From the NCBI GenBank assembly GCA_010093605.1, contig MU004197.1, positions 62,001 to 126,000 of the forward strand: DNA of 64,000 nt, read 5' to 3'. Each line of letters starts with the position of its first letter. Position 1 is the stretch's first letter. Position numbers and translations under genes: made by a program. This document shows positions 1,165 through 25,559 of this stretch, piece after piece. Origin of the DNA: Lophium mytilinum (lineage: Eukaryota). The notes under the pieces were generated by a model. The model saw only the letters and a list, made by a program, of their open reading frames with translations, was not told where the DNA came from and did not search any database.

Positions 1165-4100
1165 CTAATCCCTCACATACACTAGAACAGTCTTGTTGTT
1201 GTTTGCGCCCGACTTACCACCGTCCTCGATTGTAACTAAGACCACGTTCTGATGATCGAAGTGGGCCCCGTCGTCCGTACTCGAGATGGTTTCCCAGTCA
1301 CTTGAGTCAACCGTCTCCCACCCCTCGTCACTTTCTTCTGCGCAAGCTGGATCGACCCAGAAGTCATCCGTCTGCCATGCTCCTTCTTTCTGCTTTTTAG
1401 CCTCTGGCGCTGTGACGGTCTTCTCGGATGATGTTGGTGACTCCTGCTCTACAGCCCGGTCTCGTCCGTGATCTTTGTGCAAATTTTGCTTTGGAGGAGG
1501 CACAACCGGCTTGCGAATTGGGCGCGTTGATTCCAGCCAAGGTCCAATCCTGCTCACCGCCTGCTCGTGAAGCTGTTGTCTTAGCATCGCGTCTGTCTCC
1601 GGGGTTACCGATCGCGAACGATTAGAGAATGCTGAATTACAAGCTGTGCCGGTATTGGTAATAGATGGCGCGACGGGATACTTTCGCGCATTGAAGTTGT
1701 ACCACTGCGCGGGACGGTCGAGGTTATCGGGGATTATTGCCTCTTTGCTAAAGAAGTATGATTGAAGGCGGGTCTGGGTGACCGGTTTTAACTTCCCTTG
1801 AAATTGGAAAGTTACATTCCTGGAAATCCTGTCCAGCTCTGCCCACCGCAAGGATGTCTTTTTGGCGAGAATCATGGAGCGAGTTGAATCCACGATCGAG
1901 AAATCGGCCGCGTCCACGGTGCGATCTGATGGTTCCGCTGGCGTTCCAACGACCTCCAATTCCAGATCTTTCGCCAACTTGGGTAGCAGACCCAAGCTGA
2001 TATAGTGTCCGTCTAGTTCTGGGTCGCCTCTAACCTGCTGATAAGGAGGGTGGAATCCAGATTTCTTGCACCGCTCGTAAGGACCCCTAGCAGCCATACC
2101 TAGAAGCTGAGTTGCATTGAACATCCTGCTGGGTACGTGGTACCATAGCTTGAAGGTATTGTTGAGTTCAAAGAAATTGCCGGTTCTCTGATTCGAGAGA
2201 ATCTGAAAAGCATCGGCTAACTGTGAAGGCATATTGCCTAGACCAGCCAGATCTCTCGCTAAGGCCCGGAGATCTATACCGGAGCAAAACTCTGGGTTTC
2301 GCACCTTGTCGATGTAAGCCCTCGCCTTCGTTCGGAAAGTCCTGGTGCTCCACGTAGGCCACATTTGCGCGATGAACCCGAAAAATTTCCCAAGATCATG
2401 CATATCGACTAACACGTCCCTATCGGGTCCGTCCTTGGCATGGATTTTCCAAGACATGACGACGTCAAGAGTACGCCAGGGCTCGCTGCAATCGCCCTCG
2501 GACACACGGATTTGTCGAATAATCTCTTTTGCTGACCATTCCCAGTCGGGTTTGCCGAAGTCCCGAAAGATCGCATCGAGAATGGGGTGCCCAAAGGAAT
2601 AGGTCTCATCCACGTCTTCTAGGGGTTGTCGGTATGCGTAGCTATTTTCAACCGAGACTCCTCGGCAAAGCTCAGGCTTTGTTTCTCCCAAGTCCTCCTC
2701 GGCGGCTGCCATTGTTGCAGCCGATTCGGCTTTGTTGAGGAAATCGGCTACTTCAGGCATCTTGTCTGACATTTCATTGGTGACTTTGTTGTAGTACACC
2801 CGGCGACCGGAAGAGTGCATTGGCATGGACCAGGCCGCTGCAATATCTAAAGTTCGCTGATTTGCCTCTTTCTGTGCCTCTGTCTTGAACTTCTTCACGC
2901 GCTTCTTGGTGTTGTATACGGCCGTGCCAAGAATAGTGTCAGTGTGGCTCATAGGTTCATACCCCCCGGCTAGCTTATACTCGTTCCACTTCTTTTCCGC
3001 CTGTCTTAGCGCCGCCTGAGCCTGTTTTAGATACCATCCTGTGTCTGGATCCTTAGGATGATCGATTGCGTCACCGTCATCGGCAGCTTCTGGCTCGCCG
3101 TCGGTCTTGCGTTTCTTAGGTGGTTGCGTGTCACCGTCTCCCGGATTAGACCGTTTCACTGGCCCGGTATAGGGCAGGATGCCCTCGGTCTCTTGGAAAG
3201 ACGCAGCCACAAGAAGATCAGGGTACATCATGATCAGCCGCATAGCACGAACTGCCTCCTTGGTATCTTTGTAACATGCCTTCTCGAATGCTTTATCTGC
3301 GGTCGAATGCTTCTTGATCTTTGTCAAGCCGATCAAGAAGATCTTAGCACCGGATACCGTTAGGTGGTGGATGGCGATGTGTTTTGGCAGCAACTCTCCC
3401 ATTGTAACGTGCCTCGCGTGCAATTTTTCCAAGGCCGTCATAATGGCTCGGCAAAAGTGATTAGCCGCGAGTGTTCTGTCGTCTTGAGACCAGGCGTGGA
3501 AGTTCATCTTCAAGAGGTACTTGGAAAGCTCTGTCCATCGCTCCGGGGTGTTCGTCAAAATGACTCGGTATTTGCCAATGGTGCACTCGTCGAGTAACTT
3601 GAATATGGAAGGGTCATCCTACTTCAATTTAGCATCATCGTGTCATTTTGCCAGAATGGGGGAACTTACCGGCATATCCCAGCTTGCCATAGTCTTCATA
3701 ATTCGCTCACATTTATCGTCTTGTCCTGCTTCCAAGTCGTAGAACTTGCCTAGTAACCTCTTGCCATTGAACGGATGAATGACTACCAGAAAGTCCCCGT
3801 ATCCTCCCTTCTTGAGAACATAGCGCAAGCTATCCTCAACTTTGGCTTTCTCATCAGTTACTGTTTGTTCCGGCTTTTGAACCGCAACTGTAGGATCAAC
3901 TAGCGTTGCCGTCCCGTCCACGATCTGGAGTTTCTTCGCAAAGTACTCAGCCATGGTCGGAACGTCTTGAAAAGACTTGTGCGCGGCTAGCTCAGCATCG
4001 CGGACGGTCCAGATCTGAACTTTCAGTTCGTCTACCTCAACCTCATTGGCAGCTTCCGGGTTAAGATAGATCGAGCTGTGGAAAATTCCTCTCACGTGTC

Positions 4101-4605
4101 CCCCTCCAGCCCCGATTAGGTTGACGCCGTTGACAGAGAGCGCAGTCTCCGCTAGCGCCTGCAAGATCCAGAGGTTCTTGCCTTTGTCGGGTATGATCCT
4201 AAAAGCTTGTTTCGGCATGCTGTGGTAGCCTTCTGATGGACCAGGCAATTTCACATCCAAGCCACGCCCTTTTGCTGGCCTACCAGAGGCTTGCCGGCCG
4301 AACACGTAGTCGGGAAGATCCTTCCGGTGATGCAAGTAGATTACACCTGCTTCTTCTGATGAGTCGCGTACAGGATGCATATACATGTCTCCCACAGGAT
4401 TGACCACAGTCTTCCCAATGAGCTTTGTATTCACCTCTCCATCTGACCCAAACTCAGCCGCCGGAGCATGCTCAAGTCGAGTGACGTGGAATCCCTGATT
4501 CTGGTTTAGCTTGGCGGCCCTCTTGTTGTCCATTCGTACAATAACATTAGTAGGGCCGTAGAGCGCTCGGTGTTCCGGGAATGGACGACCCGGATCGGTC
4601 GCCAT
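1165..4605 (-). CDS. FHA-like + pseudokinase + WW-like + KilA-N/APSES-like protein, copy 1 (exons 4605-3670 and 3618-1165; ~1129 aa)
   Basis: A phase-0 intron at 3619-3669 (GTAAGT...GCTAAA...TAG) joins two long ORFs in frame. FHA-like YVFGR...WILQAL..TALSVNG. Kinase-like LEKLHARHVTMGELLPKHIAI lacks HRD and DFG. WW-like WSMPMHSSGRRVYYNKVT. KilA-N-like WYHVPSRMFNATQLLGMAA...QVRGDPELDGHYISL. Confidence 0.85.
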
Positions 4606-5509
4606 GACGGTAATGTGCCGGACTACTGATTTGGAGATTAGTGGTTCGTACAGAGAAAATCCGAATGATAGTAGACCCAGCTGAGAACAGAGTCTGGAAC
4701 ACAAAGCGTTCCTTAGTGGTGAAATTGAATTGGATGATGATAAATTGTTGGATGAAAAATAAGTAAAGAAGGCTTATACCCTGAGGTCGAGGGGAGCTGA
4801 AGGATGGGAAGCCTTACCTACTTTCTCCTATGAACGGCAGAGCACTGTTTGCATTGTATGATAATCTGCTGAGAATTTGTGGGGTTTCGGTAGGCTTTTG
4901 GTGTTGATGATGATGTGGGGGTGAGAATGAAGGTTTTGGTTGTTGAAAGGATTTATTTATGCACTGTTTTGTAAACGTTGCATTGAAGGAAAGGTGATTC
5001 GAAAAGATGAAACTGGCCCTCGCCGAGTCATTCAATGATATGACGGAGTGAATTGCCTGCTCGTGCAGTCGCTTTCTGGGTGCCATCATTCTAAGACTCC
5101 ACGACCCCGTCTTTGCTTTCTCTGTCTAGTCTGCCGAGTACAGGTTATATAAGGCTGCAAACTGGATCAACACCGTGCAAACATATGACTGAGAAGAACC
5201 TGTTCCCCTTACTAACATCGATTCATTCACTCCGATTCAGTAGTGCGCCTCATCAAACCCCGTGACCTTTATGACTTGGTCAGACTTAGATCTTTCGTCA
5301 GTTTTACACGGCCTTCAGACACATAACACCCACTCACCTACACACCACCACACAACCAACACCCACAAGCGATTATACGAGCACTCGCCTTACTCCAACC
5401 TCTGTTTCCCCTCCCCGACGGATCACACTACTACATTCTGTCATCTTCAGAAGCAGAACATCAATATTTTCTCTTTCGCCACAGCGTCACATCAGTCTTC
5501 TCGTCGACC

Positions 5510-6965
5510 ATGGTGGGCGTCGATCTTCCAAGGAAAGCTATGCGGCCGACCATATACGATCGAGCTGTAGCGAAGGCTGCTCCGCCTTCTGCAGCCGCTT
5601 CTCCCGGATCCGGGCCTTCAGCAGCCAGGCCCCCTGCGTCTATTACCCATGTAGCCAGCACCGCTCCCTCTACCGCGTCTATCATCAACTCTGTTCTGTC
5701 TAGTCCTCGTGAGACTAAGTCTTCGGCGTCGACGCCACCATCTTCTCAGGGCTCCGATCCCCACAGGACGCCTGCTGCGCAACCAAAACGAGCCAGAAAT
5801 CCTCCGCTGACCCTGGCTCAATACCTCGGACATGAGACTCCGCCAGCTAGCCTTGCTACCGATGATAGCGGAACGTCTTATGTCACCTACAAACCAACAA
5901 TAGAGGAAAGGGTGGCGAGATTGAACAGCGACGGACAACGCGAATTCCAGAAGAGACTCTGGGGAAGATACCCGCCGTTCTACCGGTTAGAAGATTTGTG
6001 AGTGCTATCTTTGGTGCTATAGTGAATAAGGAAAGTGCTGACAGAGAAATAGTCTACCAGAACAACGAGCAAGCCGCTCGACCATTCCGTCAGCGCCACC
6101 CAGCTTTACTAGCCAAGGTACCAAAAGAAGATCATCAGAGCTTGATGATGCTGCGGACGGTCTGGACCTCGATAGTGCAGAAGCTTCGACTGGTTCGACG
6201 GAAGACAGATTCGCGCTCGAAGAACGAAAAGGGACGGTCAAACCAGATGCGACTTTTCAAACCGAGGGATACCGAGATCACCAACCAGCGAAGAGGCCCA
6301 GATACGAAACGCCCACTTGCGCCGGTGGTGGTGCTCACATCACCATGATTAAGTCACCACCGGCAATTAGCAAAGATACCATGAGTTGCTCGAAAACATT
6401 CGAGGTCGGATATAGGAAGATCCGTAAGCCAAAGGCCATCAGCGATGATCGGCAAGCGAAATCAAAGGGAAGGGCGTCGAATGATGTCAACAACACAAAG
6501 AGCGGCGCTGCAGTAGTTGCATACAAGAACAGTCGCAAGCGAAACATCGATGATGTTGCAGGGCCGGCATTGGCGGGCGATAGTGATGTAAGACACTCGA
6601 AGAAGACCAAAGTTGGAAACAGTGATGGTGGACAAACGAACGACCTTCGGCACACCGACCCTCTTTTGGTCGGTCTGTTGAGAGGGGATGTGGTTGATCA
6701 TGGTTGCTTTGGGATGCACTATAGGACAGCTACGGCTTTCGATACTGATCGAGTCGAGTTAAGCTCCTGGGGGGAAGTGAAAGGAGATCCTTTTAACAAG
6801 GATCCTTCGGGCATGGGATTCGTAGGTACTGTTATGGGCCTCAAGATGGATGCAGATTGGTTAACAGAGATTGGGGTTTCTTTGAGGATGTTCACAGGGT
6901 CGAAAGCAAGGATTTCACAGCCTCGCAGGATCGGGACTCACAAGAGGGGTGTGCGACTAAAATGA
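5510..6965 (+). CDS. Disordered NLS-rich hypothetical protein, divergent partner of copy 1 (exons 5510-5997 and 6053-6965; ~466 aa)
   Basis: A phase-2 intron at 5998-6052 (GTGAGT...GCTGAC...TAG) joins ORF 5510 in frame to the ORF ending at 6965. Homologous to 12387-14181 (LAQY.G...PP, F/WY...D|LP..R.S, G.KR..SE, GYRD..P.KR.R). Confidence 0.8.
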
Positions 6966-7733
6966 CCGTATAAGCTTTATCTTTAAATTTTTTGAAAAAC
7001 GCTGTTGTCACTCGTTTGAGCTTGTTAGTTTTTCTTGCTGGATAGCGAATCATGGTTATGTAGCTCTTTAAAACGCGTATGTTACTACTTACGATCTCGA
7101 CTCGTTGGATCGTAATTGCATCTTCATCCTGGTATATTGTGCGATTTCGAGGATACCTTGAAGGGTTTCGACATAAAACAAGAATCTGCGACTTCATCCC
7201 AACAACAGCTCAGCTGAACCGAAATACCAAAGACACGTACTCTCCAGTAATCTTCACACGCCGCTTTTTGACACTTGCCAGATGGGTAGGGTGTGAAGCC
7301 TTCAAAATATGATGTCACATCAGTTATAGACTACTTTGAATGATCGAAACTGTCCATACAGCCCACACGACAAAGCTAGCAGACACGCTAAACCCATGTA
7401 TCGGAGCCTAGCCTAGGCTCATCATGGATGGAAATGAGTGGAAATATGCTTCCTAGTTTCAAGCAGTCCATGTAAGTTAAGAAAGTCGACAAAGGTTCAC
7501 GCCTCTTACGGCATTGCAATGAAAGGCGCAATCTGGCTGATCATGAACCAGTGGTTGTATATCCATTTGCCAACATCTAACGCTACCAGACCCTCTTATT
7601 ATAGATACCAGTCTCAAATATCACGACAGTGACCTATGTCTCTGCTTATTGTAGAATCGTACAACGCTACACTATATCTTCGCGATCAGAGTCAGATACA
7701 TGTTCCTTCTCTGTCTCCCAACCCCCTTCTTCA

Positions 7734-10700
7734 TCATCTTCCTTCGCAAACGGGCCCAGAGTCATCCGACTCTTCGCCTACCGGAACCGATTCTGGGTCG
7801 GTACCTGGGATTGCCACATCATAGGCCGTCGGTGAGGCCGTCATAGAATGGAAGTCATTTCCCGCAGCATGATCATGCCTAAAAAGGTGGAGTTCTTCAG
7901 AAACTGGAGTCGAATCATTGCCTACGTCTGAAAAGAAGGACGAGAAGTCAGAAGCCTCTATTTCCTGGCTCTCGTGCCCCAAATCTTTTTGAGTGTCAGA
8001 ATTTGTGTCCTCGCTGGGCTTGGGTACCACTGCCGCAAGATCGGGATCCCGAGTCTTCTCTTCGCGTACCATGTCGGCGTCTGGAAGAAGGCTGGGTCTT
8101 GTATGCTCGACGTGGTGGCTTCTGGGTAAGACATTTTCCACGTCAAAGTGGGGCATTGGGCCGTAGTCAGTCTCCTGACTACTTTGGTCAGGCTCCTCCT
8201 GAATTGAGGGCACTTTTTCTATTCCATCTTGGCTCGCTTTTGGTGTATCGTCCACAAATGTCTTGAGCCGGCTGTTTTCTAGCTGATCAGCGTCGGTGTT
8301 GCGGGCACTCTCATTTGAAGATGGGCCTGCATAGTTGTTCAGGTCCATTGAATAAGCGTCGTCGCAAACGCTACCTGCCATACTGGACGCCATAAACTCC
8401 TCCGACTTTGGCATTGGTACCTGTTTACGGAAGCTGTACCAAGATTTAGGTCTCCCACGGTCCGTCGGCACTTCATACTCGGGACCAAAGAAGTAAAGTA
8501 GGCGAAGCTTTTGAAGATCCCCATGGGTGCCTCTGAAATATGTCAAATTGTCCTTCCCATGCGAGTATCCAGGATACTCAACTTTGACCTTTTTTCGGTC
8601 TAGTGTTGCCCACTGTAGTGAGCTCCGCTTGGCAAGAATCTGATACTTCTTCGAGTCTACGCCCGAGAAATCGGCCGCGTCAACAGCCCGACGGGTTGCC
8701 TCTACCGGTGTTCCAACCACATGCACCTGCAATGCCCTAGAATATTTCTTGAGAAGATCCAGGCTAACATAAATTCCCTCGATCTCGTCTTCTCCAAGGA
8801 GCTCTTGGAATTCCGTGATATGCAATGATGGGTCCTTGCTAACACGCGCACGGATGGCTGGGTCTGCTAGACTAAGCAGGTTCGTTATGTTAAAGCTCCT
8901 ACTTGGTACGTGGTACCACAGGTTGAGTCCGCTCTTGATTACCAGCGCATCTATGCTTGGGGAGTTCTTGTCTCGCAGGATTTTGAAGAGCTCGGCCATT
9001 TTCGGGGGCAAGTTTTCCTTGTTAGCAAGATCGTTCGCGAAGGCTCTCACATGCCGACCTGCACAGAATCCAGCAATCCCAGGATCGTCTCGACCGTACG
9101 CTTTGAATATGGCCGCCACGATTGAGGCCCACGCCGGCCAGGTCTTCTGAACGTATCTTAAGAATCGCCGTAAGTCGGTGAGATCGAAGAGAACATCTTG
9201 TCCCGAGGCCATCTTTTTGACGCCTAACCGGAAATCCTTTGGCACGAGCAAAGCCCTGAAAGGGCAGTAGAAGTCGCCTTTTATCGTCCGAATCTCCTTG
9301 CATATAGCGATGATTGTAATGTTCCAAGAATCCGGATGGGAGCTCAATCGCGCCAATAGGTCGTCCAGAAATGGATGGCCGAGTGTGAACATCTCCTCGA
9401 TCCCCGACAGGAACTGATAGTACGCGATGCTGTTCTCGAGAATCATTTGAGTGGACGAGTTTTCTTCTTCGTCTATCGAACGATATACCCCCTTCTCCCC
9501 TGCTTGGGACTTCCTCTTCCCACTATTCAATGCTGGTTCATGCATAGGGATACCTTGAGATGGCACTTTCGATTCTTCAGGCTGCGTGATCTTACGCACC
9601 GGATGAGTCGAATAAGATGTCTTGGACATGGCATGACGGGAGAGGACTAACCCATCAGTCCCTTTCTCGCGGGTCCAGCCCCGCGGCAGCTTTAGCTGCA
9701 AATCTGCTAGTCGCTTGGCTTCTTGATTGACAGCTTTCCGGAGCCTATTTACTCGCTGGTCGGCATCGAATGCCTCCATACCAAGTAGGGTGTCTCGATA
9801 GCCAAGCGATTCATACCCTGGGTTTCCTCTGTAATCAACCCAAGCTGCTTTGGCCTGCTCGTAACCTTCGAGCGCTCTTTGAAGAGCTTCCTCGGCGGTC
9901 ATATTACTGCTGGGGGTCACACTCTTTCGTTCGTACGTACGATTCGACTGAGAATCCGGAGCTGTGCTTGGTGATTCGGAAGGTACGCGAAAGACTGGTC
10001 CCATGGAGCAACTTTCCTGTTCGTAGGAGGTTACAATGCCGAGATCTATCATAGACTTCGCAACATTAGTCATCTCAGTGAATAACATGACGGAACGGAT
10101 CAAACGCAAGCCCCACATTGCTTCTTTCCTTGACAGGTCCAAGAAGCGATGGTCTCCCGGCTGTATTATGCTGGCCTTGGAGAGATCGCGAAGCAATATT
10201 CTGGCAGTCGACGTGGTCAGGTGCGCTACGTGTATAGTACTCGCGTTGATGTTACCGTAGAGAACTCGCCTCTCGTGAAGAGTTTCTAGGGAGCTCGCGA
10301 GTTCTTTGAAGAGGCTAGCCGCCGCGGAGCATCGATCTTCCTTTCTCCACCTGTAGAAGTCGATCTTTTTGAGGTATTCCCGCAGAGGGATGTACTCCTC
10401 GCGACAGTCGGAGAGTAGAATTCGACATCGACCATACCTAGCTTCTAGGGGCAGATATTTGATGATCGAAGGATCTCCCTTTTTGAGTTAGCTTTGGGCC
10501 GTGCTTTGTCTTTACGTTGAGAATTAACTTACCGTCACAGATTCTGAGATCCTCCGCTCCAAGTCGGCTTGCTTGTCATCTCCTTTGCTAGTATCAAAGA
10601 AGGTACCAACATACTTGTCGCCAGTCAGCGGATTGATGACTTTGTAAGAACGAGTGGCAACAGGATGTTCTTTCAGGACATAGAGGTGCTGTAGCCCATT

Positions 10701-11417
10701 CTCGTTGTGCTCCCCAACTTCGGTCCTGCTATTGACTTCCTCTTTGTCATTCATGATGGTAGGTGTAGCGATGGTTGAATATATCCCAGCTTTTGTTTTA
10801 AACATGTCATCAAGTGCCATGTCGGGGAACGATTCAACTTTGTCCCCACACGCTGCCGCCTCACGAATTTGCCAAATCTCGAGCGTCAGCCCATCGACTT
10901 TGACTTTGTTGACATTCTCTGGGTCAATGTAAATTGACGATCGATTTCCCCCATTCTTAGCTGCGTAAAGTTCAAATTCATTGACCTTGATTTTGATATT
11001 CGATAGTGCTTGTAGAATGAAGAGGTTCTTCGCTTTGTCAGGGACCAGGCGAAAAGCCTTCCGAGGCATGTTTTTAAACCCGTGATTGGTGCCTGGTAGA
11101 ACGACGTCCATCAAGGAGTCTTTGTATGCCCGGTTATTTGTGTCGCGTCCGAAAGTATAGTCAGAATAACCGTCTTGTTCATGGAGGTAGATGAAGCCGC
11201 CTTCAACAATGAGGTCGTCGTCCGACGATCGCTCTTTGCCATTTACATTGTGGTCCTTTCGAGGACGTTTTGTTTGATGGTGACCGTACTCCTTGACATT
11301 ATAGTAGCGGTTTTGGTTGAGCACGATGGTAGAGTTGTGTTCAACTTTGATGATGAGGTTGATGGGGAGACCGTAATGCTCATCAGGGGGAGAGGGTCGG
11401 GTGGAGTAGAGGCTCAT
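7734..11417 (-). CDS. FHA-like + pseudokinase + WW-like + KilA-N/APSES-like protein, copy 2 (exons 11417-10533 and 10478-7734; ~1209 aa)
   Basis: Phase-0 intron at 10479-10532 (GTAAGT...GCTAAC...AAG). Exon 2 reads GDPSIIKYL...LETLHERRVLYGNINASTIHV. WW-like LPRGWTREKGTDG...STHP. KilA-N-like WYHVPSRSFNITNLL...GIYVSLDLL. Collinear with copy 1. Confidence 0.85.
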
Positions 11418-12386
11418 GATGTGACTATTGCCTCCACCCCAGTCGGTCGTAAGGCGATAATAGGATATAGTGAGGCTTTATACCTGTCCTAGTTCCCAAA
11501 ATACGTTGTCTTTCAGTATAGGAGGACTAGCGAATAAAACTGAGGGTGGTGATAGGACCGGTGGTAGGAGATAGATGGGTTGTGGAAAGTGAAGAAACAA
11601 GAGCTTGTAGAGAACCTATTTATCAATGTCCACAACTTAACGTGATGGTGAATGAAAGACCACCTGCGCTAATCCAGACGTGCAGATGCAGGGCAAAATG
11701 CGAGCAAGGGATAAGGAAGCAGTTGATGTTTGAAGTGAGAAGACGTCCCGAGAAACTCAGTCATGATGATAGAAAAGGGTCGTGGGTAATACCGAGAGTT
11801 AGAAGAGTGGATGTTGAATGATAGAAACGGTAGAAGGGAAAGAAGTGAATGCCCTGTGAAAAGGACTTACTAGCTTCGTAAAGCTTAACCAATTCTAAAA
11901 ATTCACCGACACCATGGGCCTCCTACTTAAGATGCTCGTCGCATGTAGATACGAGGGCATTTGAGGGCAATCAAGATGCACTATATCGTAGCTGAGGTTC
12001 CAATATATATCATGTCGAAAAGAAAGCACGCGAATATAGAAAACAGCATAAGCTAATCATTGCATAGGACACATTTGTATTGCCAGGGTCCACTTGGGGA
12101 ACTGAAAGGTGAACGATTGACGAGGGAGCAAAGGAAATAGTCCCGCCTGCCGCCTAATTCCTCAACACCAAGCTACAATGGCATTGAAGACCGCTCATTG
12201 CGAAGATGCCCCATTGTGAATTAGAGAGACAGATTCTTACTGCATCGGGCTTTCAAACTCAAGTGCCAGCTTAGCTTTCATTAACCTTGTGATCTAATTA
12301 GCCCGGGCCTGTCCCCCGATCGCAGTGTTCTGACTTTACACAAACACCCCACCACCGCTTCCATTACGGTTAACATATTCAAAGTC

Positions 12387-14181
12387 ATGGATTACCTAGA
12401 CCCATCCAAGTTCCTCTTCCATTGGCTCCAGCCGCATGGTGCGTCGAGATCCGCCTCCGGCAACGATCAGCCTAGGTTCACGGCCTTCGTCAACACCCTG
12501 CCCTCACATATTGCTGAGCTCGATGAGGAAACTGGCGGCAAAGCGTCGAAGCGGAAATGGAATTTGGCGCAGTATACGGGCAATCGGCGTCCGCCTCCTC
12601 CGGAGAGTGATAGCGACGCGACCGGTTATTGTTCCACTTCTTTGTCACAGAAACTAGAGAGTCTCAATGACTCTTACCGCCGTTTTCGCTTTCGGGAAAC
12701 TAATGGATTTGATCAGCCATGGTACCAAGTTAAAGATATGTGAGTGGAATGTCATTCTTGACTGGTTGAGAGGACAGGTTGTTGACTTGAGCAGTTTACC
12801 AGTCCGCCGCGGGAGTTGTACTACATTATCGGGTTCCGACGCCTTTCCTGCAACTAGGGGCTTGAAAAGGCCGGCATCTGAGATTGAGAATTTATCCGAG
12901 GGAGTGCGTAATGGCGGTCGTAGCGACGAGACTACCGGAGTCTCCTCCCAGGAATCGTCCCTTAGCGACGCTCCCGAGGAGTCAAAGCCTTTGGTACTAG
13001 CGAACCATTTAGGATACAGGGATGGACCACCACCGAAGAGATTCAGGAAAAATCCGTATTACGACTTAAATGTTCCCAGCACTGCCTCGTTTCACGCCGT
13101 ACATGCAGGTTCTACCGAGAAAAGCCCGCACGCGTCGAAGCTGCGCAGGATTGTCAACGCTAAGCTTCGCCCACTTCGAGAAAGACGCAACATTGCTCCG
13201 CGGGGCAAGAAAGTTTCTCCAGAGCAAACGGAAATGACTTGCGAGCTTTTTGACATTGAAAAGAGAACAGAATCAAACATGTCGATGATAAAGAGGAGGT
13301 CGCAGTTCCATAAGTCATCGGCTGATGCAATCATCTCTCCCTCACATGGAATGTCCACCCCACCCCGCGACAACAACGACCCGGAACCCTTTCATCATAT
13401 GGCGCTTCCACCAGCACATCTTAATACTCCTAGAGACGTGCGGCACACCGACGATGCTGGCGGTAAATCGATATCACATCTCCCGTCACCTCCGGACGAA
13501 TCTTGTAACGAATCGAAGACCTCGCAGTCAGAATGCCACAACATCCCTGAACCCCGGGATAATGAAATTCCATTTAACTCACTAACATCCACATTCCTCA
13601 AAGTCACAAAGAGACGAGGAGAATTGACTGATATCGAGTCGAAACAATCCCGACCGTCGAAACCAGCAGCCGGTTGGTTCCAAGCAAACCTTCCAGCGAT
13701 TTCGGTGCCGCAAATCTTTCCCAAGCCTTCGACGTCGAAACGCCAGCGTCAATGGGAAGACAACACCAATGAAGATTATTCAGAAGCGCGTCCCGTAAAG
13801 AGGTTGCGCGGGAATAGTCTGGCTAGATCCTTAGCCGATAGGATATCAATATCAAAGATACGGACAAAAGATACGCAGAGCCCGACTATGCAGTCGAGAA
13901 GCCAAAGCGCGAGAGGAAAAGATTGCATTGACCCGCTTGGTGATGTCGCAACACCGCAAAGCACACAATGGACGCTTGGGGCACCATTTCCGTTCACAGG
14001 ATCGGAGACTAGTCAAGGAGCTCTTGAGGCTCTAGTATTGAGTGCTATCGAAGCCGCGGAGAAAGACGTCCTCCAACGTGCGCTCCAAGAGATCTGTCGC
14101 TCTACTGATACTGGCTTGCAAATTGTGGCGAATGAGCTCCTAGGAAATTGCGAACACATCGGACAAACGGAGTATGGATGA
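12387..14181 (+). CDS. Disordered NLS-rich hypothetical protein, divergent partner of copy 2 (exons 12387-12739 and 12795-14181; ~579 aa)
   Basis: Phase-2 intron at 12740-12794 (GTGAGT...GTTGAC...CAG), with the same length and position as the intron in 5510-6965. Shared motifs lie on both sides of the junction. Confidence 0.8.
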
Positions 14182-17520: not shown

Positions 17521-17759
17521 CGACGGGCGTGAAGCGGGTTTAGAGGCGGAAGAAAGCGAAGAAAGCAGAGAAAGTATCAAACGGCGTGGTACTCGAAGGA
17601 CGTGTTCTGTGAAGGAGTCCTCTGTTAAATGGAGGGATAGTGAAGAAGGTAATGTGGGGTGAACAGCAGGCTCTGGAGAAGAGAGGCAAAAAATACCCTA
17701 AATAGTCGTTGGAGTAAGAAGATAATTGATAGAGAATTGGAGAGGCTTATCTTTAAGGG

Positions 17760-17960
17760 TTGCCCTAAGCTGTGAAACTCCAGTTGCTCAGCTTTAACAT
17801 TGTTCCCCTAACAATACTGTAGGGCGTGGCCTGGCTGCTAACTAGATGTTTAGTTAAGAGATAGCCTAATCTACACTGATTGAAACTCGACATCGCCTTT
17901 GAGTCCTCAAAGCCCTTGGGGGCTGACACACAATCCCTAGAGATGCGAAAAAGATTGCGA
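17760..17960 (-). repeat. Dispersed copy of the repeat family (long-flank subtype)
   Basis: The reverse complement ggcgatgtcgagtttcaatcagtgtagattaggctatctcttaact...cagccaggccacgccctacagt aligns with 51795-51885 and 63820-63905. Confidence 0.8.
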
Positions 17961-18413: not shown

Positions 18414-21400
18414 TTAGCCACCTAGGTGATTAAGCGCCCTAGTCTTTGCCCCTCGCGGAATTGGCACCCGCGTTGGGGCTGCGCCAACGACTCGTGTTTT
18501 GCGAGTCCTCTTCTTCGCGGGAGGCTGTGCTGTTGGTGCAGCTTCTTCAGACTCCACCACCGCTGCCACTGGTTCTTCGGGTGCAGAAGCCTCCGCGATT
18601 GGTACAGCTTGCTCCGTCTCCAGCACTGTCGCCACTGGTGCTTGGACCACTACAACTTCGTCATCCTCATTGTCCTGTTCTAAAATCTTTTCCGACTCTG
18701 GTCGTGGGGATGGAAGCGCTGGGCCCGCTTGAGTAATGAGTGAATCTGGCTCATTTTCCGCCTGTTCTTGGGTCGGAGGTCCGGTTCCAGAGTCAGAGGT
18801 CGCTTGTGACGTAGATGGTGATAGATATGCTTTAAAGCTGTGTGGCGGAGTAAAGCTTTGTGCTCCTCTGTCGGCAGAACTTAAGGATGTAGCTTGTCCC
18901 GGCGATGCAGGTCCTGGCGGCTGTGTAACCTGGGTTCGTAGCGGAGATCCCGTCTGCACTCCAGCCTCCACATGGATTGGAGACGTAGCTCGTTCCAGTG
19001 GTGTAGATGGCGACAATTGACTCATTGGAGCCGCTACACGGTCAAGATCTTCGAGTTGAGGAACTTGTGTATCGGCAATAGAAGAATCGTCCCTTTCCAA
19101 TGGCCTAGGAACCATTGAGTGAAAATCGGGACCGATGACACGCTCGTGCGCAGAGTGGTAATTCTGTGTCGACGGAAGCGACGAATGGGGGCTAGGCACC
19201 ATAGCCTGGAAATCGGGGCCGAGGACTTGGCCGTGCTCAGAATGGTAATCCTGTGTCGATGGCAGTGAAGGATGTGGGCTGGGAATCATCGACTGGAAGT
19301 CAGGACCGAGAACAACTTCGTGCTCAGAATGGTAGTTCTGTGTCGATGGAAGCGAGGGGTGTGGGCTAGGCACCATTGACTTGAAGTCAGGACCAGTAGC
19401 AACCTCGCGCCGAGAACCATACCCTCGCGTGGATGGAAGTGAGGGATGTGGGCTGGGCACCATCGCCTCGAAGTCAGGACCAATAACAATCTCGCGCTGA
19501 GAACCATATCCCCGCGTTGATGGAAGTGAGGGATGTGGGCTGGACACCATCGCCTCGAAGCCAGGACCAAGAACAACCTCGCGCTCGGAACCATACCCCC
19601 GCGTCGACGGAAGCGAGGGACGAGGTTTGGTCACCATTGAGCGAAATTCTGGCCCAGTAGTTTCATTGTGCTCGGAACTCTGCTTCTGCGTCGATGGAAG
19701 CGAGGCATGGGGTTTGGGAACCATTGACTGGAATTCAGGACCCAGAACATCCTCGATCTCGGAAATGGATCCCGGTTGGCATTCTGAGCTCCGCTCCTCC
19801 TCCTCTTGGTACTCATCCTCCTCTGGGTACTCCTCCTTCTCTGGGTACTCCTCCTCCTCCTCTTGGTCGCTCTGAGTTTGCAGCAGAAATCGGATCCGCT
19901 TCGCACTTGGCAGTGGCACTGCCTTAGCATCCACAAGCTCATGCTTCCTCTTCTTGTCTCGATTAAGATAGGCTTTTCGCAATGTCTCCGCCATAGCTTG
20001 GCTGGAGTTCAAACTCGTGAATTTGGAGTCGTCGCGCCGCTCGGGTCGAGGAACGGAAAGAACCTGCTGTGCAATGTTTCGCCGGGAGAATTTGAACCCT
20101 CCTTCCGGCCGGTCGTCCACGCGGCGCTTCGGGCTCTTTGCGGCTAGTATTTCTTCTATCAGCGAGATGCGTGGCTGATCAGTCGGAAATATCGACCAGT
20201 GACGAGGTGCAGACCGGTTCGCGGGGAGGTTAAGTTGCTTTCCCTGACAAAAGTTCTGTTCGAATGTGTTCAGTGGGAAAGTATGGCCGCACCACTCTAC
20301 GATGTCTTCATCCCGATGTAGTAAAGCCAGATCGAGAAAATGCGGAATCATGAGGATGATCTTAGCCTGCCAGTCAACATTGGCAAAGCTTGTTTGGTCG
20401 ATGGCGGATTGGTCCCATGACTCGCGAAGTATTTCTTCCCGATCCGGAACTCGAAGATGCAGCTTTTCCATGAACCATTCCAGGCTCCGAATCAAGGCGT
20501 ACCGCCCTCGGATCCTAGGGTCACCTTGAATTTCAGGAACCTGTTGCGTCGGATATGCAGCGCGGCGCCTGTCCATGATCCTGTGAAGATAGTCCGGATG
20601 AGCAATACAGAGCAGCTGCGTAAGATTGAACATCCTTGATGGCTGGTGATACCATATATAGAACGTGGCCGTAAATCTCAAGCTGGACTTCTCTTTGCCC
20701 GTGCCCTGAAGAGTCCTATAAGTAGCGACTGCTTCGCTGAGGATCGATGGAAGAGGCTTTTTCCTCGCAAAAGCACGAGCGAAGGCATCAACATGGGTCA
20801 AGGTGCAGAACCCTGTTCCACGACCATCTGGAACGTACTCCTTGCAAAGAGAGACTATGTCTTTCCTATGATCAGGATACATGTCTATGCAACAAAGGAC
20901 GTAGTCTAGGAGGGGCTTCAACTTCACTAGCGCGTCTCCATGCTTTCGCTGGTAAACGGGAATATAAAAATTCCTCAGAACTTTTATCTGACTCCAGTAG
21001 TGAACCTTGTTACCTCCAATGGATCGGACTATTTTGTTCACGTCGGAGACGGTATATGCCCTAATCCCGCTCGACACTTCGTTCACGATCCGATCCAGAG
21101 TCAGGTGGCCCAGAGTATATCCTGGGTGGATGACTGGCGGTGCAAGGAATCGCCTTGATTGTAACATAGCCGCTGCCCTCGTCGAGTCTCGCTTGGCGAT
21201 AGCATCAAGTACCTTGTTCCCGAGTCGGTCAAATTCCAAACCATCGCTATCGTCGGGATAGTTTTCGGCGTCGGTATAGGTGCGTCTAGCAGCCACCAGA
21301 GCTTTCTGCGCGAGGCTATGTGTGTGCCAAGCATGATTATCCTGATCCAATTCGGGTGACTCCAGGTGGGCACCTCTTAGACGCCCAGGAATGTCCTCCA

Positions 21401-22885
21401 TGCGCAGGAACTGTGCAACGACCCTGACGATAGAAGACAGGTCAAACTCGAATAATGCCTGGGTAGTATCGCCTGCCTCCAAGACAATGCTGTTGGAGAA
21501 CCCGGTTAAACATAGATCAGCACCGTTGCGTCCTAGATCGTGGACAAGGACTGTGTCCATGCTCAAGTTGTTGTGCGCCGTAGATGTCTCGTGCATTGTC
21601 TCCACAATGTTCAGGAGTGATTTCATCAGCCAGAGCGCTCCTCGGTGGCGATCCTCCAGGTTCAACTCTTGAGCGTTCTCATTCATGAACTTACGAAGAG
21701 TTACGGCGCGTTGATGATATTCCCCTAGCAAGATCGGTACACCTTTCACGGTGATTGGCTTGCGGAATCGCGCGATTGAGAGAATTGTCTATAAGAAACG
21801 TATGTCAGTCATCTGAATGAATTATGTTCAAGCAAATAGCAAGGGGAGTTTTTACTTACATGCAATCCGTTCACCAATTCGAAATGGTCGTTGGCCATTT
21901 TATGTCCCGAATATCCCTTGGGAAGTATATGTGCCACGAGGTGTTCGCCATTGAATGGATCCAATGCGAGATACGTCTCGCGTCCCGACTGCGAGGGCAG
22001 TTTGTGAGATCTCAGGACATATATCTGAGTTTCCTCTTCAGCCCGAATACGAGATTTCCTCAGCAGCAATCTATCGTCTACCGATGCCTCGTTGGCCTGT
22101 GCGTTGGTTGCTCCGAAGCTCGCGCCAAGTTTCTCGAGTTTGGCAAAGTCCGAAGACAGAGAAGATCGCGCACAAACACTCGGTAGTCGAATTGGGTAAA
22201 TATAGATCACGATACCCTCAATCTTGACGACATTCCGGGCTTCTGGATTCAAGAAAATCTGATATCGATGGCCAGTCGCATTGCTCTTGGCTTGCATATA
22301 GACATTGTTGACGACAGCAAGCGTAGGAGACGTAGAAGTAACTTCGAGACACCAAGCGTTGGCAACTCGGTCAGGAAAGACGTGGAAGTGTTGTCGACCG
22401 ACCGTGTTTTCGCCATCCTCGGCTGGTACAAGCACGGCACACTGCGCACTTCGGCCGAAGTAGTAGTCGGGGTAGTCGTCATCGTCGTGGAGGAGAACGT
22501 AGGTGCCCACAGGGCCGTTGCCAATCTTCGGTGGCGTTTCGCGTTCTTGCAGCCATGCTTCGCGATCCAGGTCGTTCGGGTTGTAGTGCCTAATATCCAC
22601 TTCCCTGCCATCTATTCGTTTGTAAAGTGGCTCCTTGGAATATCCATGTCGTAGTTCCTTGGCGGCGGCCTCCGCAGGGTTTTGCCACTCTTTGCTGGTC
22701 CTGGAATCGAAGATCTGATAGGAACGGGACAAGGGAACTTCGCCAGGTGCCGTGTACCGTCCGTATTCATTGACTGCATTGGCGCCTGCGTGGTGGACGT
22801 GTACGAGCAGATTGACCCCCGCAGGGCTGTTTTTGACAAGAGCAATAGGTAGGTCCGGGGACGAGTTGGTGAAATACGGATTCAT
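18414..22885 (-). CDS. FHA + pseudokinase + KilA-N/APSES-like protein with tandem-repeat tail, copy 3 (exons 22885-21860 and 21788-18414; ~1466 aa)
   Basis: Phase-0 intron at 21789-21859 (GTAAGT...ACTGAC...TAG). Clearest FHA of the three: YYFGRSAQC...VGRQHFHV...WCLEVTS. Kinase-like METMHETSTAHNNLSMDTVLV-type segment followed by LTGFS. KilA-N-like WYHQPSRMFNLTQLLCIA...EIQGDPRIRGRY. Confidence 0.85.
19105..19750 (-). repeat. Coding tandem repeat, 87 bp (29 aa), ~7.5 copies
   Basis: Unit GPDFxxMVPSPHPSLPSTxxYxSxxExVx. The motif ggaagcga/ggaagtga recurs at 19348, 19435, 19522, 19609 and 19696. Confidence 0.95.
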
Positions 22886-24111
22886 TTTCGAAGCCGGAAG
22901 ACGGCCGCTCCGTGAGGTCCGCAGACACGAGAGACACGATTGTTGTAGGTAGAGGTGCGAAGTGGGGGTAGCAAGGAGTGTAGAGAGGGATTGCGGGTTG
23001 CAAGAAGGTGGTGTGGTGTGTGGGTAGAGAAGTGTGGTTGATGGTAGTGAAAGCCGTTCCAGAGTTCGCTGAGGATGATATTTATATGCATTTTCTCCCC
23101 GCGGGCGGCACCTACATGGTGGTCATGCGGACAACGTGAGCTAGCTTATGGTGAATGTTACATACATTGCACTGTGCGCCTAGGCGACATTGAGCATTCC
23201 GAGAGGTATTCGAGGCACGCTCCATTTATGATCCAGGAGCGACCAATTGTGCATAGAAAACTTTCACTATTCTAGGAGTGCGACATGTAGACATGGCCCG
23301 ATTCACTGCCCAGCGATCTATCAACGTTTCCGGTTTGGCGCTGCAACCTAATAACTACCCCACATCCCTATTCTCCCCACGCACAGCTACGTCCTTTGAT
23401 CTTCCAATTAGTCAAAGCGGGAGGTTCGACTCGAAGCATCTGTCGCGAATACTCAAGCGAAGATGTAGGTGGCGGGCTGTTTCTGTTTGACGGAAAGGAG
23501 TCTTTATAGACTGTAGTTTCGATGGGTTGGGCTTAACTCTAGACACGCAGGCACGGCAGGTAGCACTGTAACAGACGGAGGGGCTACGCATATAAGTCTT
23601 TGTATGGCGCCAAATGCGGTCTTAGGTATAGCTTTATGTAAGTTCTCCCTCTTACACTCTCTTATATAGCCTCCTTTACCGCCTCTCATACACTCTCCCA
23701 TGCGCCTTTCAAGACGGCTTCTCATGAAGTCGAGGGGGTTCAATAGTCTCCAGACCCGAAAACATGAGAACTAAGCTGCAGAGACAACTCCATGCAGATC
23801 TATGCTAGACCAGACAGACAAGGGGCGAGAGTGTGTAGCTAGTAGTCTGCCTGCAATCTCTCTACCCAGCATGGGCGTCGTGCAATGCTTGTCTTACGTG
23901 AAGTCACCAAAGTTCCGGCTATCGTAGCCCGCCGGTTCGAGACACCATTCACTATGATAGAAAACAGCTTTTAAGAGTCTCTTGTCCTTGCCGTGTTTCC
24001 AAGAAAAACTCTGCTCACTTCCTTGCCACAACCTTGACTGTAGTTGCCTCCACACACCACCCACCACTCTATCAATACGATTTTGAAACCTAACTCCAAT
24101 ACTTCGCCATT

Positions 24112-25559
24112 ATGTTGGGAAGCCTTGTCGGTCGTCTATCGTATTCTATGACGCGCTTCTTTAGCGGGAATGGCTTCGAGCTACCATTCGCGCCCAATCA
24201 CAAATCGGAAGCAGAATTACCTTCAGAGCTCAGCGAGCCTTTGACGGAGTATCGGGATGGTATGACTGAGTATATTCGCGAACAGATCGCGGTTCTATCC
24301 AATCCATATGACTTTGTACCAATGCCCGTAGCTAAGCGGTAAGTGACCCATATCATCTGTGAAGCCGTTTTCAAAAGGCTGACTGCTATAGTCCCCCCAA
24401 AATATACCCACCACCGCCTACCACAAGGACTCTAGCGACTTCCACAAAACGTCTAGAGTTGTCCACAATTCGAACAAGCAAGCGGAAGGCCGCCGATGAA
24501 CAAGACGAGATCTTCGAGTGTGTGCCTTCGAAGCGTCCTAGATTGGCGTACAATGGGGTTACACCTGCGTTCTGCCAGAAGCAGCAAAAGGTCTTCCAGC
24601 GGGCAAATCGATCAGCAGCATCCAAGAAGAGAAACATCGCTCGGCCCCGGCACAGAACTGTGTATTCACTAGACGTGGATATGACGGACATTCTCAAGTC
24701 AGGAACGGAGCTAGAACAGACTACCGCTCCTTTCGGCGCCCACCTCGATAGGGATGTGCCGCCTTCTCATGTGGGTGCTATAACAGGGAACCAGCCAACA
24801 ATAGTACCAGAATCGGTAAAGTTGCCCGATGGTACACCACTTGAGATTGAGCCTATCCTGTTGGGTTGCAACGTTGGAAGTAAGGTCTTGCATTCACCAA
24901 CAAGGATGTGTTCAGCGACACAGCTACCATCATCGGCACTCAATGCTCAAAAGGCGACTTCTGGTCAGAAGTCAGCCATCTCGGGGAGATCCCCGTCGGA
25001 TCCCCTATCTCCATCTCATGCCTACATGGATCCATCCAGCATCGGCAGAGTACACAGCTCCGAGCATTCTCCACTCCACCAGATCGTCCACCAGGGAGCG
25101 GAAACCGCCAACTATGGAAACTCTCCACGGTTGCAGAATTGCTCTACTAAGCATGTGGCAACTGGTGGCACTGCACAACACCATAACACATATCATAACT
25201 CATCAAGCGAAGATGAGAGCTTCCACTCCTCCTCCTCCTCCGGCCGCCGAAGCTACGCGACACCCCCGTCCACCCCTCCACAGTCCGAGCGCGGTGACGA
25301 AGTGACACCGCCTCCTATCGCTCCGAAGCCAAAGCCAACGAGGAAGAACCACAGAGTGCCCAAGATGCCGAACATGCTTGAGGTAGATACTGGAGGTCAC
25401 TGGCAGATTCCCCTCGGGGATGGCTTCCTACGGCGGAGCAAGAGGATAAACCCCGCTATGCAGTCGGACTTGCAGAAGCCCGGCTATATGACGCGGAGGA
25501 AGGCTAAGCTTCTTCAGAGAGCCCGGATTGAGGTTTCTTTGGCGAAGGGGATGCGGTGA
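24112..25559 (+). CDS. Disordered NLS-rich hypothetical protein, divergent partner of copy 3 (exons 24112-24338 and 24392-25559; ~464 aa)
   Basis: A phase-2 intron at 24339-24391 (GTAAGT...GCTGAC...TAG) joins the ORFs in frame. KRKAADE...PSKRPR weakly echoes the motifs of partners 1 and 2. Confidence 0.75.

What the first reader, a model, noticed from the sequence alone, without database searches (positions are those of the whole stretch)
1165..25559. Triplicated head-to-head two-gene module: FHA-pseudokinase-KilA-N gene plus a disordered nuclear partner
Seen: three cassettes (1165-6965, 7734-14181, 18414-25559), each with a large minus-strand gene and a plus-strand partner, start codons 904, 969 and 1226 bp apart. 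All three large genes have a phase-0 intron at the same point in the kinase N-lobe. All three partners have one 53-55 nt phase-2 intron. Partners 1 and 2 share clear motifs; partner 3 only weakly. The pairing has survived extreme protein divergence. Known: tightly linked, fast-evolving gene pairs in fungi include allorecognition loci (Neurospora doc-1/doc-2) and killer/resistance meiotic drivers. Inference: this is a co-regulated, co-evolving two-component system (toxin/antidote, sensor/inhibitor or drive element). I do not recognise it as described.
Basis: partly seen in the sequence, partly recalled or inferred. Interest (0 to 1): 0.9.

Follow-up and report, generated by a model that had tools for sequence, protein, structure and literature searches.

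The report
Duplicated fungal pseudokinase gene pair
A wood fungus carries three diverged copies of a catalytically dead checkpoint-kinase-like gene; two of them kept the same disordered neighbour gene through an old block duplication, and nothing yet shows that the neighbours work together.

Summary
The window is from Lophium mytilinum. Three large minus-strand genes (L1-L3) are true paralogs. They share a phase-0 intron at one alignment column in the kinase N-lobe.

Predicted structures show a Rad53/Chk2-like FHA domain followed by a kinase fold. The catalytic residues are lost, so "FHA-pseudokinase" holds. The conserved C-terminal domain could not be confirmed as KilA-N. Sequence searches found nothing, and profile comparison is only weakly suggestive.

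Each L gene has a divergent plus-strand neighbour with one 53-55 nt phase-2 intron. Only P1 and P2 are demonstrably homologous; P3 is not.

L belongs to a wider fungal family of 80 representative clusters. In six metagenomic loci of the main clade the gene has no such partner. It sits downstream of a RhoGEF or striatin gene on the same strand.

The best reading is a lineage-specific block duplication of a two-gene unit, older than the Lophium/Mytilinidion split. No evidence supports toxin/antidote, drive or allorecognition. Expression and binding could not be tested.

The parts
568..4605 (-). L1 gene (BU16DRAFT_566200, P0007, 1207 aa). Exons 3670-4605, 1180-3618 and 571-816; introns 3619-3669 (51 nt, phase 0) and 817-1179.
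4006..4356 (-). L1 FHA-like beta-sandwich (about residues 84-200). The GR and NG motifs are kept; the Ser and His of SxxH are lost.
   Evidence: Model. Foldseek FHA, Rad53 and CHK2 matches. Motifs.
2494..3819 (-). L1 pseudokinase domain, spanning the phase-0 intron and carrying disordered inserts. HRD is replaced by MGE and DFG by GLT; the strand-3 Lys is kept.
1684..2493 (-). L1 conserved C-terminal alpha/beta domain (CTD). This is the family signature, with motif YH.PSRMFN.TQL ... EVRG ... G.Y. It is possibly KilA-N-like.
   Evidence: pLDDT about 85-97. Conservation. No Pfam, PHROGs or PDB-sequence hit. hhalign P 0.0017.
4606..5509 (.). Spacer 1 between the L1 and P1 start codons (904 nt); presumed bidirectional promoter.
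   Evidence: No words shared with spacers 2 and 3 above chance.
5510..6965 (+). P1 gene (BU16DRAFT_543522, P0087, 466 aa). Intron 5998-6052 (55 nt, phase 2). Basic, disordered composition.
7734..11417 (-). L2 gene (P0008, 1209 aa). Intron 10479-10532 (54 nt, phase 0). HRD is replaced by YGN; the DFG Asp is kept (DLS); the strand-3 Lys is replaced by Thr.
11418..12386 (.). Spacer 2 between the L2 and P2 start codons (969 nt).
12387..14181 (+). P2 gene (579 aa, my model). Intron 12740-12794 (55 nt, phase 2). Homologous to P1 over about 148 aa that span the intron.
18414..22885 (-). L3 gene (1466 aa from the ATG at 22885; the deposited P0010 starts further upstream). Intron 21789-21859 (71 nt, phase 0). 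HRD is replaced by HNN, DFG by GFS, and the strand-3 Lys by His. The tail carries an 87-nt tandem repeat.
22886..24111 (.). Spacer 3 between the L3 and P3 start codons (1226 nt).
24112..25559 (+). P3 gene (464 aa, my model). Intron 24339-24391 (53 nt, phase 2). It has the same place, orientation, size and composition as P1 and P2, but no homology is shown, so its membership of the module is doubtful.

Best explanation
This is a local array of three old paralogs of a fungal gene family. The protein has an N-terminal FHA-like domain, a Rad53/Chk2-like kinase fold that has lost its catalytic residues, and a conserved C-terminal alpha/beta domain of unassigned fold.

Shown:
- The three L genes share a derived intron that main-clade relatives lack, so they arose from one ancestor by local duplication.
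- L1 and L2 were copied together with a divergently transcribed neighbour, P. P is a basic protein of disordered composition with NLS-like motifs.
- That block duplication predates the split of Lophium and Mytilinidion. All four ORFs have stayed open since.

Inferred:
- L proteins are non-enzymatic nuclear scaffolds or adaptors. The FHA-like and pseudokinase modules would bind partners, and the C-terminal domain may bind DNA or protein.
- P is co-expressed with L from the shared spacer of about 0.9-1.0 kb.
- The L-P linkage is most simply inherited passively, as one unit with a shared promoter. It is not a family-wide functional pair, because main-clade relatives lack any such partner.
- L3's neighbour P3 may be an unrecognisably diverged third copy (roughly even odds) or an unrelated gene.
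For: - Paralogy and the shared intron.
- Intron absence in the main clade: in 6 of the 7 metagenomic loci that include the site (L001, L002, L003, L005, L006, L008), one ORF runs through it. The seventh, L004, is broken elsewhere.
- FHA and kinase folds.
- Lost catalytic residues.
- Family breadth: 80 representative clusters at E <= 1e-3, of which 41 at E <= 1e-30. Weak Pkinase hits occur in 16 of 42 relatives scanned, with 2 above Pfam's cut-off. FHA hits occur in 3 of 42.
- P1-P2 homology.
- Age of the duplication: L1 groups with the Mytilinidion ortholog (73% identity), and L2 (31%) is their sister with support 100 (FastTree).
- P1 has a Mytilinidion ortholog at 52% identity. It lies on a contig of the same length (483,219 bp) as the L1 ortholog.
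- No partner in the main clade. In none of the 6 loci with at least 1 kb of upstream DNA (L001-L006; L004 and L005 are near-identical) is there a divergent partner. The upstream gene is a same-strand RhoGEF in L001, L002, L003 and L006, or striatin in L004/L005. The gaps are 317, 362 and 495 nt in L001-L003. The partner profile gives 0 hits at E <= 0.01 on all ORFs of at least 100 aa in the 9 loci.
- P composition: pI 8.7-9.7, 72-76% disorder-promoting residues, 1-3 K[KR]x[KR] motifs.
Against: - Both genes stayed intact in two copies over a long time, and L3 shows the same gene order and orientation. This is also what a functional pair would show.
- The metagenomic loci are only about 20% identical to L1-L3. 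They say nothing about the Mytilinidiales subclade itself.
- Adjacency of the Mytilinidion orthologs is not shown; they share only a contig length.
- L3's place in the tree is unresolved because of its long branch. Monophyly of L1-L3 therefore rests on the shared intron.
- Nuclear location, disorder, scaffold function and co-expression are inferred from sequence only.
- No RNA data were available.
Confidence: 0.6

Rival explanations
1. L and P form a functionally coupled two-component system. The disordered partner would be a client, inhibitor or phospho-ligand of the FHA-pseudokinase scaffold. The two would be co-regulated from the shared promoter and co-evolve within Mytilinidiales.
For: - The L+P block persisted in two ancient copies with all ORFs open.
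- L1 and P1 orthologs are both present in Mytilinidion, on contigs of equal length.
- P1 and P2 keep short conserved motifs within otherwise unalignable sequence, as linear binding motifs would.
- The third paralog has the same arrangement.
Against: - Main-clade relatives have no partner: none in the 6 informative loci.
- No promoter words are shared.
- P3 is not detectably related to P1 or P2.
- In L1 and L2 the FHA phosphate-contacting Ser and the His of SxxH are replaced. L3 lacks the Ser but keeps the His. Classical phosphothreonine binding is therefore doubtful.
Confidence: 0.25
2. The module is a selfish or recognition element: a toxin/antidote pair, a meiotic driver, or an allorecognition (greenbeard) locus.
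For: Only circumstantial evidence exists.
- The copies diverged fast and lie tightly linked in a local array.
- The Mytilinidion gene model shows a fourth L-type paralog next to the L1 ortholog, so the array is dynamic.
Against: - No toxin, nuclease, pore-forming or HET/NLR-type domain was found in any of the six proteins.
- L is a member of a family whose main-clade members lie in conserved synteny with housekeeping genes: RhoGEF, striatin and a 2-hydroxyacid dehydrogenase.
- L1 and P1 have orthologs in another genus, rather than the patchy presence usual for drivers. That usual pattern is recalled, not tested.
- Unlike doc-1/doc-2, which are paralogs of each other (PMC4831770, passages read), L and P are unrelated.
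Confidence: 0.05
3. The partner ORFs, or some of them, are not protein-coding genes, and the pairing is an annotation illusion.
For: - P2 and P3 have no Pfam match and no detected homologs outside this window.
- The composition is low in complexity.
Against: - The ORFs are open for 303-461 codons after the intron, in DNA of about 50% G+C. This length is very unlikely by chance.
- The introns have canonical GT..AG ends and restore the frame.
- P1 is deposited as a gene model identical to mine, and it has a 52% identical ortholog in another genus.
Confidence: 0.03

Closest known systems
Rad53 / Chk2 / Cds1-type checkpoint kinases (FHA domain followed by a CAMK-like kinase domain)
   Same: The domain order and folds match. 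The exon-1 model matches Rad53 1-466 (E 1.7e-4, 214 columns) and CHK2 (6.7e-4), and also isolated FHA domains. The exon-2 model matches CAMK-group kinases, including the Rad53 kinase domain.
   Different: - The catalytic residues are lost.
- There are large disordered inserts in the C-lobe.
- There is an extra conserved C-terminal domain of about 270 aa, absent from those kinases as I recall them.
- In L1 and L2 the FHA has lost the Ser and His of SxxH.
- No Pfam FHA or Pkinase hit for the window proteins reaches threshold.
- Orthology to any checkpoint kinase is not claimed.
Pseudokinase scaffolds such as CASK or the PAN3 pseudokinase
   Different: The domain context is different. No specific relationship exists beyond the shared fold.
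KilA-N / APSES DNA-binding domains (fungal SBF/MBF, APSES, Xbp1, Bqt4; phage KilA)
   Same: - The core of the C-terminal domain has the order strand-strand-helix-helix-strand-strand-helix. That this matches the KilA-N core is recalled.
- hhalign places the family motifs MFN.TQL and EVRG..G.Y on the phage motifs y.LNDL and G..GTy.
   Different: - No Pfam, PHROGs or PDB-sequence match.
- hhalign probability is only 15.7%.
- The fold was not compared.
- The four fungal KilA-N subfamilies named in PMC4862756 (passages read) are transcription factors without FHA or kinase modules. 'FHA' occurs 0 times in that text.
Neurospora doc-1/doc-2/doc-3 communication (greenbeard) locus
   Same: Tightly linked, highly diverged genes for proteins of 828-920 aa without recognised domains (PMC4831770, passages read).
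   Different: - The doc genes are paralogs of one another, whereas L and P are unrelated.
- doc homologs were reported only in Sordariales.
- Homology of L to DOC proteins could not be tested, because the FASTA supplements cannot be read here.
- Polymorphism is unknown for this locus.
Divergent gene pairs that share a bidirectional promoter
   Same: Head-to-head arrangement with start codons 0.9-1.2 kb apart, copied as one block.
   Different: Co-expression is not shown, and no shared promoter words were found.

Membership tests
FHA domain | Beta-sandwich fold of FHA domains | tested here: met
   The exon-1 model (pLDDT 75) matches the MDC1 FHA domain (E 5e-4, target TM 0.66), KIF1A, TIFA and Rad53 FHA1, and also Rad53 1-466 and CHK2.
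FHA domain | Conserved phosphothreonine-contacting residues (Gly-Arg, Ser-x-x-His, Asn-Gly; motif list recalled) | tested here: not met
   GR and NG are kept in L1-L3. The Ser and His of SxxH are replaced in L1 (Pro, Ala) and L2 (Pro, Ala). L3 keeps the His only.
FHA domain | Match to Pfam PF00498 above its cut-off | tested here: not met
   No hit for the window proteins. Among relatives, 3 of 42 hit at E <= 0.01, one of them above the cut-off. One metagenomic relative scores 21.2 bits against a cut-off of 20.7.
Protein kinase superfamily | Bilobal kinase fold | tested here: met
Active protein kinase | Strand-3 Lys, HRD Asp and DFG Asp all present | tested here: not met
   L1: Lys kept, HRD replaced by MGE, DFG by GLT. 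L2: Lys replaced by Thr, HRD by YGN, DFG by DLS. L3: Lys replaced by His, HRD by HNN, DFG by GFS. Hence pseudokinases. Activity was not assayed.
KilA-N / APSES domain | Sequence match to the family model (Pfam; PHROGs families; solved APSES or KilA-N chains) | tested here: not met
   0 of 11 C-terminal-domain sequences hit a KilA-N family at E <= 10 in Pfam or PHROGs. The profile gives 0 hits against PDB sequences. ESM features show no KilA-N cluster.
KilA-N / APSES domain | Profile-profile similarity to bona fide KilA-N domains | tested here: inconclusive
   hhalign of 51 family sequences (core region) against 10 phage KilA-N domains gives score 23.0, P 0.0017, probability 15.7%, 50 columns in the expected register. 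1 of 200 column shuffles and 8 of 200 block shuffles reach that score.
KilA-N / APSES domain | Fold match | tested here: inconclusive
   The secondary-structure order fits. Kinase matches filled every Foldseek and VIA list, so the domain was not compared.
Toxin-antidote / killer meiotic driver | One product toxic and the other protective; distorted transmission | not testable with these tools
   No toxin-type domain was found. No genetic data are available.
doc-type allorecognition locus | The linked genes are paralogs of each other | tested here: not met
   L against P gives only chance BLASTP hits, E >= 0.8. doc-1 and doc-2 are reported as paralogs (PMC4831770, passages read).
doc-type allorecognition locus | Highly polymorphic alleles with trans-species polymorphism | not testable with these tools
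   Only one genome per species was reachable, and the window's own genome is not held.

The most novel reading that the evidence does not exclude
The L proteins would be a fifth, undescribed fungal lineage of KilA-N-type DNA-binding proteins. The domain would be fused to a dead Rad53-like FHA-kinase module, giving a chromatin-bound phospho-signal reader. In Mytilinidiales this lineage would have spawned a rapidly diversifying array in which each copy co-evolves with its own disordered nuclear partner, as a cognate recognition or inhibitor pair.
Probability: 0.12. Interest if true: 0.75.

Novelty: new variant of a known kind. Interest (0 to 1): 0.4.

Why it matters
FHA-kinases of the Rad53/Chk2 type are central checkpoint enzymes. 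This work finds a fungal family that keeps the FHA and kinase folds, has lost catalysis, and carries a conserved extra domain with no family assignment. The family comprises 80 representative clusters.

I found no description of it. Searches for KilA-N + FHA + kinase + fungi gave 0 papers. A search for FHA domain + pseudokinase + filamentous fungi gave 1 paper, unrelated by its title and abstract.

If the C-terminal domain proves to be KilA-N-like, the family would link phospho-signalling modules to a DNA-binding fold otherwise known in fungal cell-cycle and developmental transcription factors.

The duplicated L-P block gives a natural test of whether linked divergent gene pairs persist by function or by shared promoter. 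The dramatic readings (toxin/antidote, drive, allorecognition) currently have no support.

Tried and rejected
- Complex prediction of L1 (residues 84-957) with P1 (95-220): no answer, score 0.00, controls not run, alignments not used. This is neither for nor against binding.
- RNA evidence: no RNA holder was listed. The one run offered (X1, kind guessed) laid a single 31-nt piece at 17869-17899. Splicing and co-expression remain untested.
- The window's own genome is not held.
The taxa of the 76 unnamed relatives are therefore unknown.
- Word-indexed homolog searches found only the protein itself and Mytilinidion orthologs.
With A1, 98 pattern matches gave no relative. With main-clade alignment A8, 9 loci were found.
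- C-terminal domain identity: Pfam, PHROGs, PDB sequences and ESM features gave nothing. KilA of phage P1 alone against the profile gave probability 0.18%. The Foldseek PDB, Foldseek viral and VIA-wide lists were filled by kinases.
- Shared promoter words in the three spacers: none above shuffles.
- P3 homology: BLASTP, profile and shuffle tests were all negative.
- DOC homology: the FASTA supplements of PMC4831770 cannot be read here. PMC13557503 has 0 occurrences of FHA, pseudokinase, kinase-like, AlphaFold, 'conserved domain' or KilA.
- IQ-TREE quick search did not finish, so FastTree was used. L3's placement is unreliable because of its long branch.
- Earlier findings of this scan: none by place, words or sequence.
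- My first hhalign run carried a mistaken option and gave score 12.3. The figures quoted come from the corrected runs.

Full report
ORGANISM AND GENE MODELS

The best database match of the first large ORF is a hypothetical protein of Lophium mytilinum (Dothideomycetes, Mytilinidiales), 100% identical. No whole genome is held for the window.

I built gene models from the ORF map, the translations and the junction sequences.

- L1: exons 3670-4605 and 1180-3618. The deposited protein P0007 adds a last exon at 571-816.
- L2: 10533-11417 + 7734-10478. This equals the deposited P0008.
- L3: 21860-22885 + 18414-21788. The deposited P0010 starts further upstream.
- P1: 5510-5997 + 6053-6965. This is identical to the deposited P0087.
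- P2: 12387-12739 + 12795-14181.
- P3: 24112-24338 + 24392-25559.

All six spliced models are open with a single terminal stop.

CHECK OF THE OBSERVATION

The three large genes are paralogs (exon-wise):
- L1-L2: 31% over 1042 aa, E 3e-137.
- L1-L3: E 3e-19 and 1e-12.
- L2-L3: E 1e-22 and 3e-20.

Their introns (51, 54 and 71 nt) are all phase 0. They fall at the same alignment column, just before the conserved 'DPSI / ILSI' strand that follows helix C.

The partners each have one phase-2 intron of 55, 55 and 53 nt. The start-to-start spacers are 904, 969 and 1226 nt.

P1 and P2 are homologous over about 148 aa that span the intron: E 2e-10, Smith-Waterman z 14.9, 0 of 500 shuffles.

P3 is not detectably related to them.
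- BLASTP gives no hit.
- The partner profile scores -15.9.
- z is 1.5 and 1.1 (38 and 63 of 500 shuffles).
- The one higher value, 3.4 against the Mytilinidion P1, is matched by a control with an unrelated disordered ORF at z 4.5.

No further L or P copies occur in the window.

The third 'cassette' shares only arrangement, size, composition and the presence of a short phase-2 intron. These features are individually common in fungal genes (my general knowledge, not computed).

WHAT THE LARGE PROTEIN IS

Pfam gives nothing above threshold for the window proteins.

A profile of the three paralogs found 80 representative clusters at E <= 1e-3 among 1.84 billion proteins, 41 of them at E <= 1e-30. 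The strongest conservation lies in a C-terminal domain. Among 42 relatives scanned, 16 have weak Pkinase hits. Only P0058 and P0059 exceed the cut-off. Three have FHA hits.

With family alignments I predicted exon 1 (312 aa, pLDDT 75) and exon 2 (817 aa, pLDDT 71.5, structured parts about 85-97).

- Exon 1 matches FHA domains and the FHA-plus-kinase structures of Rad53 1-466 and CHK2.

The family alignment shows that the catalytic residues are gone:
- L1: HRD replaced by MGE, DFG by GLT.
- L2: strand-3 Lys replaced by Thr, HRD by YGN.
- L3: Lys replaced by His, HRD by HNN, DFG by GFS.

The FHA keeps GR and NG. It has lost the Ser of SxxH in all three copies, and also the His in L1 and L2. 'FHA-pseudokinase' is therefore supported. 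Classical phosphothreonine binding is doubtful.

THE C-TERMINAL DOMAIN

The most conserved part of the family carries the motifs YH.PSRMFN.TQL, EVRG and G.Y. It folds confidently.

Its core runs strand-strand-helix-helix-strand-strand-helix. As I recall, this is the KilA-N/APSES order.

Sequence methods find nothing: Pfam and PHROGs on 11 domain sequences, the profile against PDB sequences, and ESM features. All structure-search lists were filled by kinases, so the domain was never compared.

I fetched KilA of phage P1 and nine other phage KilA-N domains and ran hhalign locally against 51 family sequences. The result was score 23.0, P 0.0017, probability 15.7%, 50 columns. The two signature motifs fall in the expected register. 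1 of 200 column shuffles and 8 of 200 block shuffles reach that score.

This is suggestive, not decisive. The KilA-N label remains a hypothesis.

HISTORY OF THE ARRAY

In a FastTree of 51 family members, L1 groups with a Mytilinidion resinicola protein (73% identity). L2 is their sister, with support 100. The L1/L2 duplication therefore predates the split of the two genera. L3 sits on a long, unresolved branch.

The N-lobe intron is absent from main-clade genes. In 6 of the 7 metagenomic loci that include the site, one ORF runs through it. L004 is broken elsewhere. The intron is thus a shared derived character of L1-L3.

The Mytilinidion gene model P0009 fuses the L1 ortholog to a further L-type gene, about 25% identical to L1 and L2. 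The array may therefore continue left of the window.

P1 has a Mytilinidion ortholog at 52% identity. Each ortholog is recorded on one contig of 483,219 bp. They are probably on the same scaffold, but adjacency is not shown.

IS THE PAIRING A PROPERTY OF THE FAMILY?

A metagenome scan with a main-clade alignment returned 9 fungal loci with flanks. None of the six with at least 1 kb upstream (L001-L006; L004 and L005 are near-identical) has a divergent partner.

- In L001, L002, L003 and L006 the upstream gene is a same-strand RhoGEF. Pfam confirms this for L002 and L003. L001 is 55-57% identical to them. For L006 the call rests on the C-terminal piece, judged by eye. The gaps are only 317-495 nt in L001-L003.
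- In L004/L005 the upstream gene is striatin, followed by about 2.1 kb without a convincing ORF.
- The partner profile hits none of the ORFs of at least 100 aa in these loci.
- A 2-hydroxyacid dehydrogenase recurs downstream in L002, L003 and L005.

The main clade thus looks like a gene in conserved synteny with housekeeping genes. The L-P arrangement is specific to the Mytilinidiales subclade. These loci are only about 20% identical to L1-L3, so they do not speak to that subclade.

THE PARTNERS

P1-P3 are basic (pI 8.7-9.7). They have 72-76% disorder-promoting residues, negative GRAVY and 1-3 K[KR]x[KR] motifs. They have no Pfam match.

Nuclear location and disorder are inferences from composition.

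The three spacers share no words beyond chance.

MECHANISM AND VERDICT

Most likely (about 0.6), an ancestral L gene with a divergent neighbour was duplicated locally as a two-gene block. The copies diverged to about 30% identity and were all retained. L proteins act as non-catalytic, probably nuclear, adaptors. L-P linkage reflects a shared promoter region inherited as a unit.

A true functional pair remains possible (about 0.25). A toxin/antidote, drive or allorecognition role has no support (about 0.05).

Literature:
- The doc locus of Neurospora differs because its linked genes are paralogs of each other (PMC4831770, passages read).
- A survey of fungal KilA-N factors names SBF/MBF, APSES, Xbp1 and Bqt4 and never mentions FHA (PMC4862756, passages read).
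- I found no paper that describes an FHA-pseudokinase-KilA-N family (searches; listings only).

Expression, binding and population variation could not be examined.

Noticed in passing
window 19101-19755 (-): The C-terminal tail of L3 holds an 87-nt (29-aa) tandem repeat of about 5.6-5.8 copies, 76-82% matching. It is in frame, as 'GPDF.SMVPSPHPSLPST..Y.SE.EVV' units.
   Followed up: partly
window 571-816 and about 1200-1400 (-): The L1 tail is very acidic, with repeated Trp-acidic motifs including 'SSDWETISS'. This has the form of an Atg8-interacting (LIR-like) W-x-x-I motif (recalled). The Mytilinidion ortholog keeps similar motifs.
   Followed up: no
P0009 (Mytilinidion resinicola), residues about 1000-1522: The deposited gene model fuses the L1 ortholog to a fourth L-type FHA-pseudokinase gene, about 25% identical to L1 and L2. 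The array may therefore continue beyond the left edge of this window.
   Followed up: partly
L001-L006 (metagenome loci): Main-clade relatives of L lie in conserved synteny. Upstream on the same strand is a RhoGEF (L001, L002, L003, L006) or striatin (L004/L005). A 2-hydroxyacid dehydrogenase lies downstream in L002, L003 and L005. These genes lack the N-lobe intron.
   Followed up: yes
window 32133-33734 (+) and 34692-36457 (-): Two F-box genes lie tail to tail (Pfam F-box E 5e-6 and 1e-3). They are possibly another local duplicate pair.
   Followed up: partly
window 37789-39009 (+) and 59652-63707 (-): By eye, two otherwise different proteins share a C-terminal motif block of the form '...LL.D.QL..F...RE...F...L'. 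The larger one has a weak KIX_2 hit (E 2.5e-4, below cut-off).
   Followed up: no
window 27886-31584, 44916-51110, 52594-55392 (-): Three very long ORFs (1232, 2064 and 932 codons) of low-complexity, Ser/Pro/Ala-rich or coiled-coil-like sequence. The two that were scanned have no Pfam match. The region as a whole is rich in fast-evolving disordered proteins.
   Followed up: no
window 42890-44134 (+); 40007-41236 (-): Ordinary genes are nearby: a PIG-P subunit (E 1.9e-42) and a P-loop NTPase-like protein (weak hits only).
   Followed up: partly
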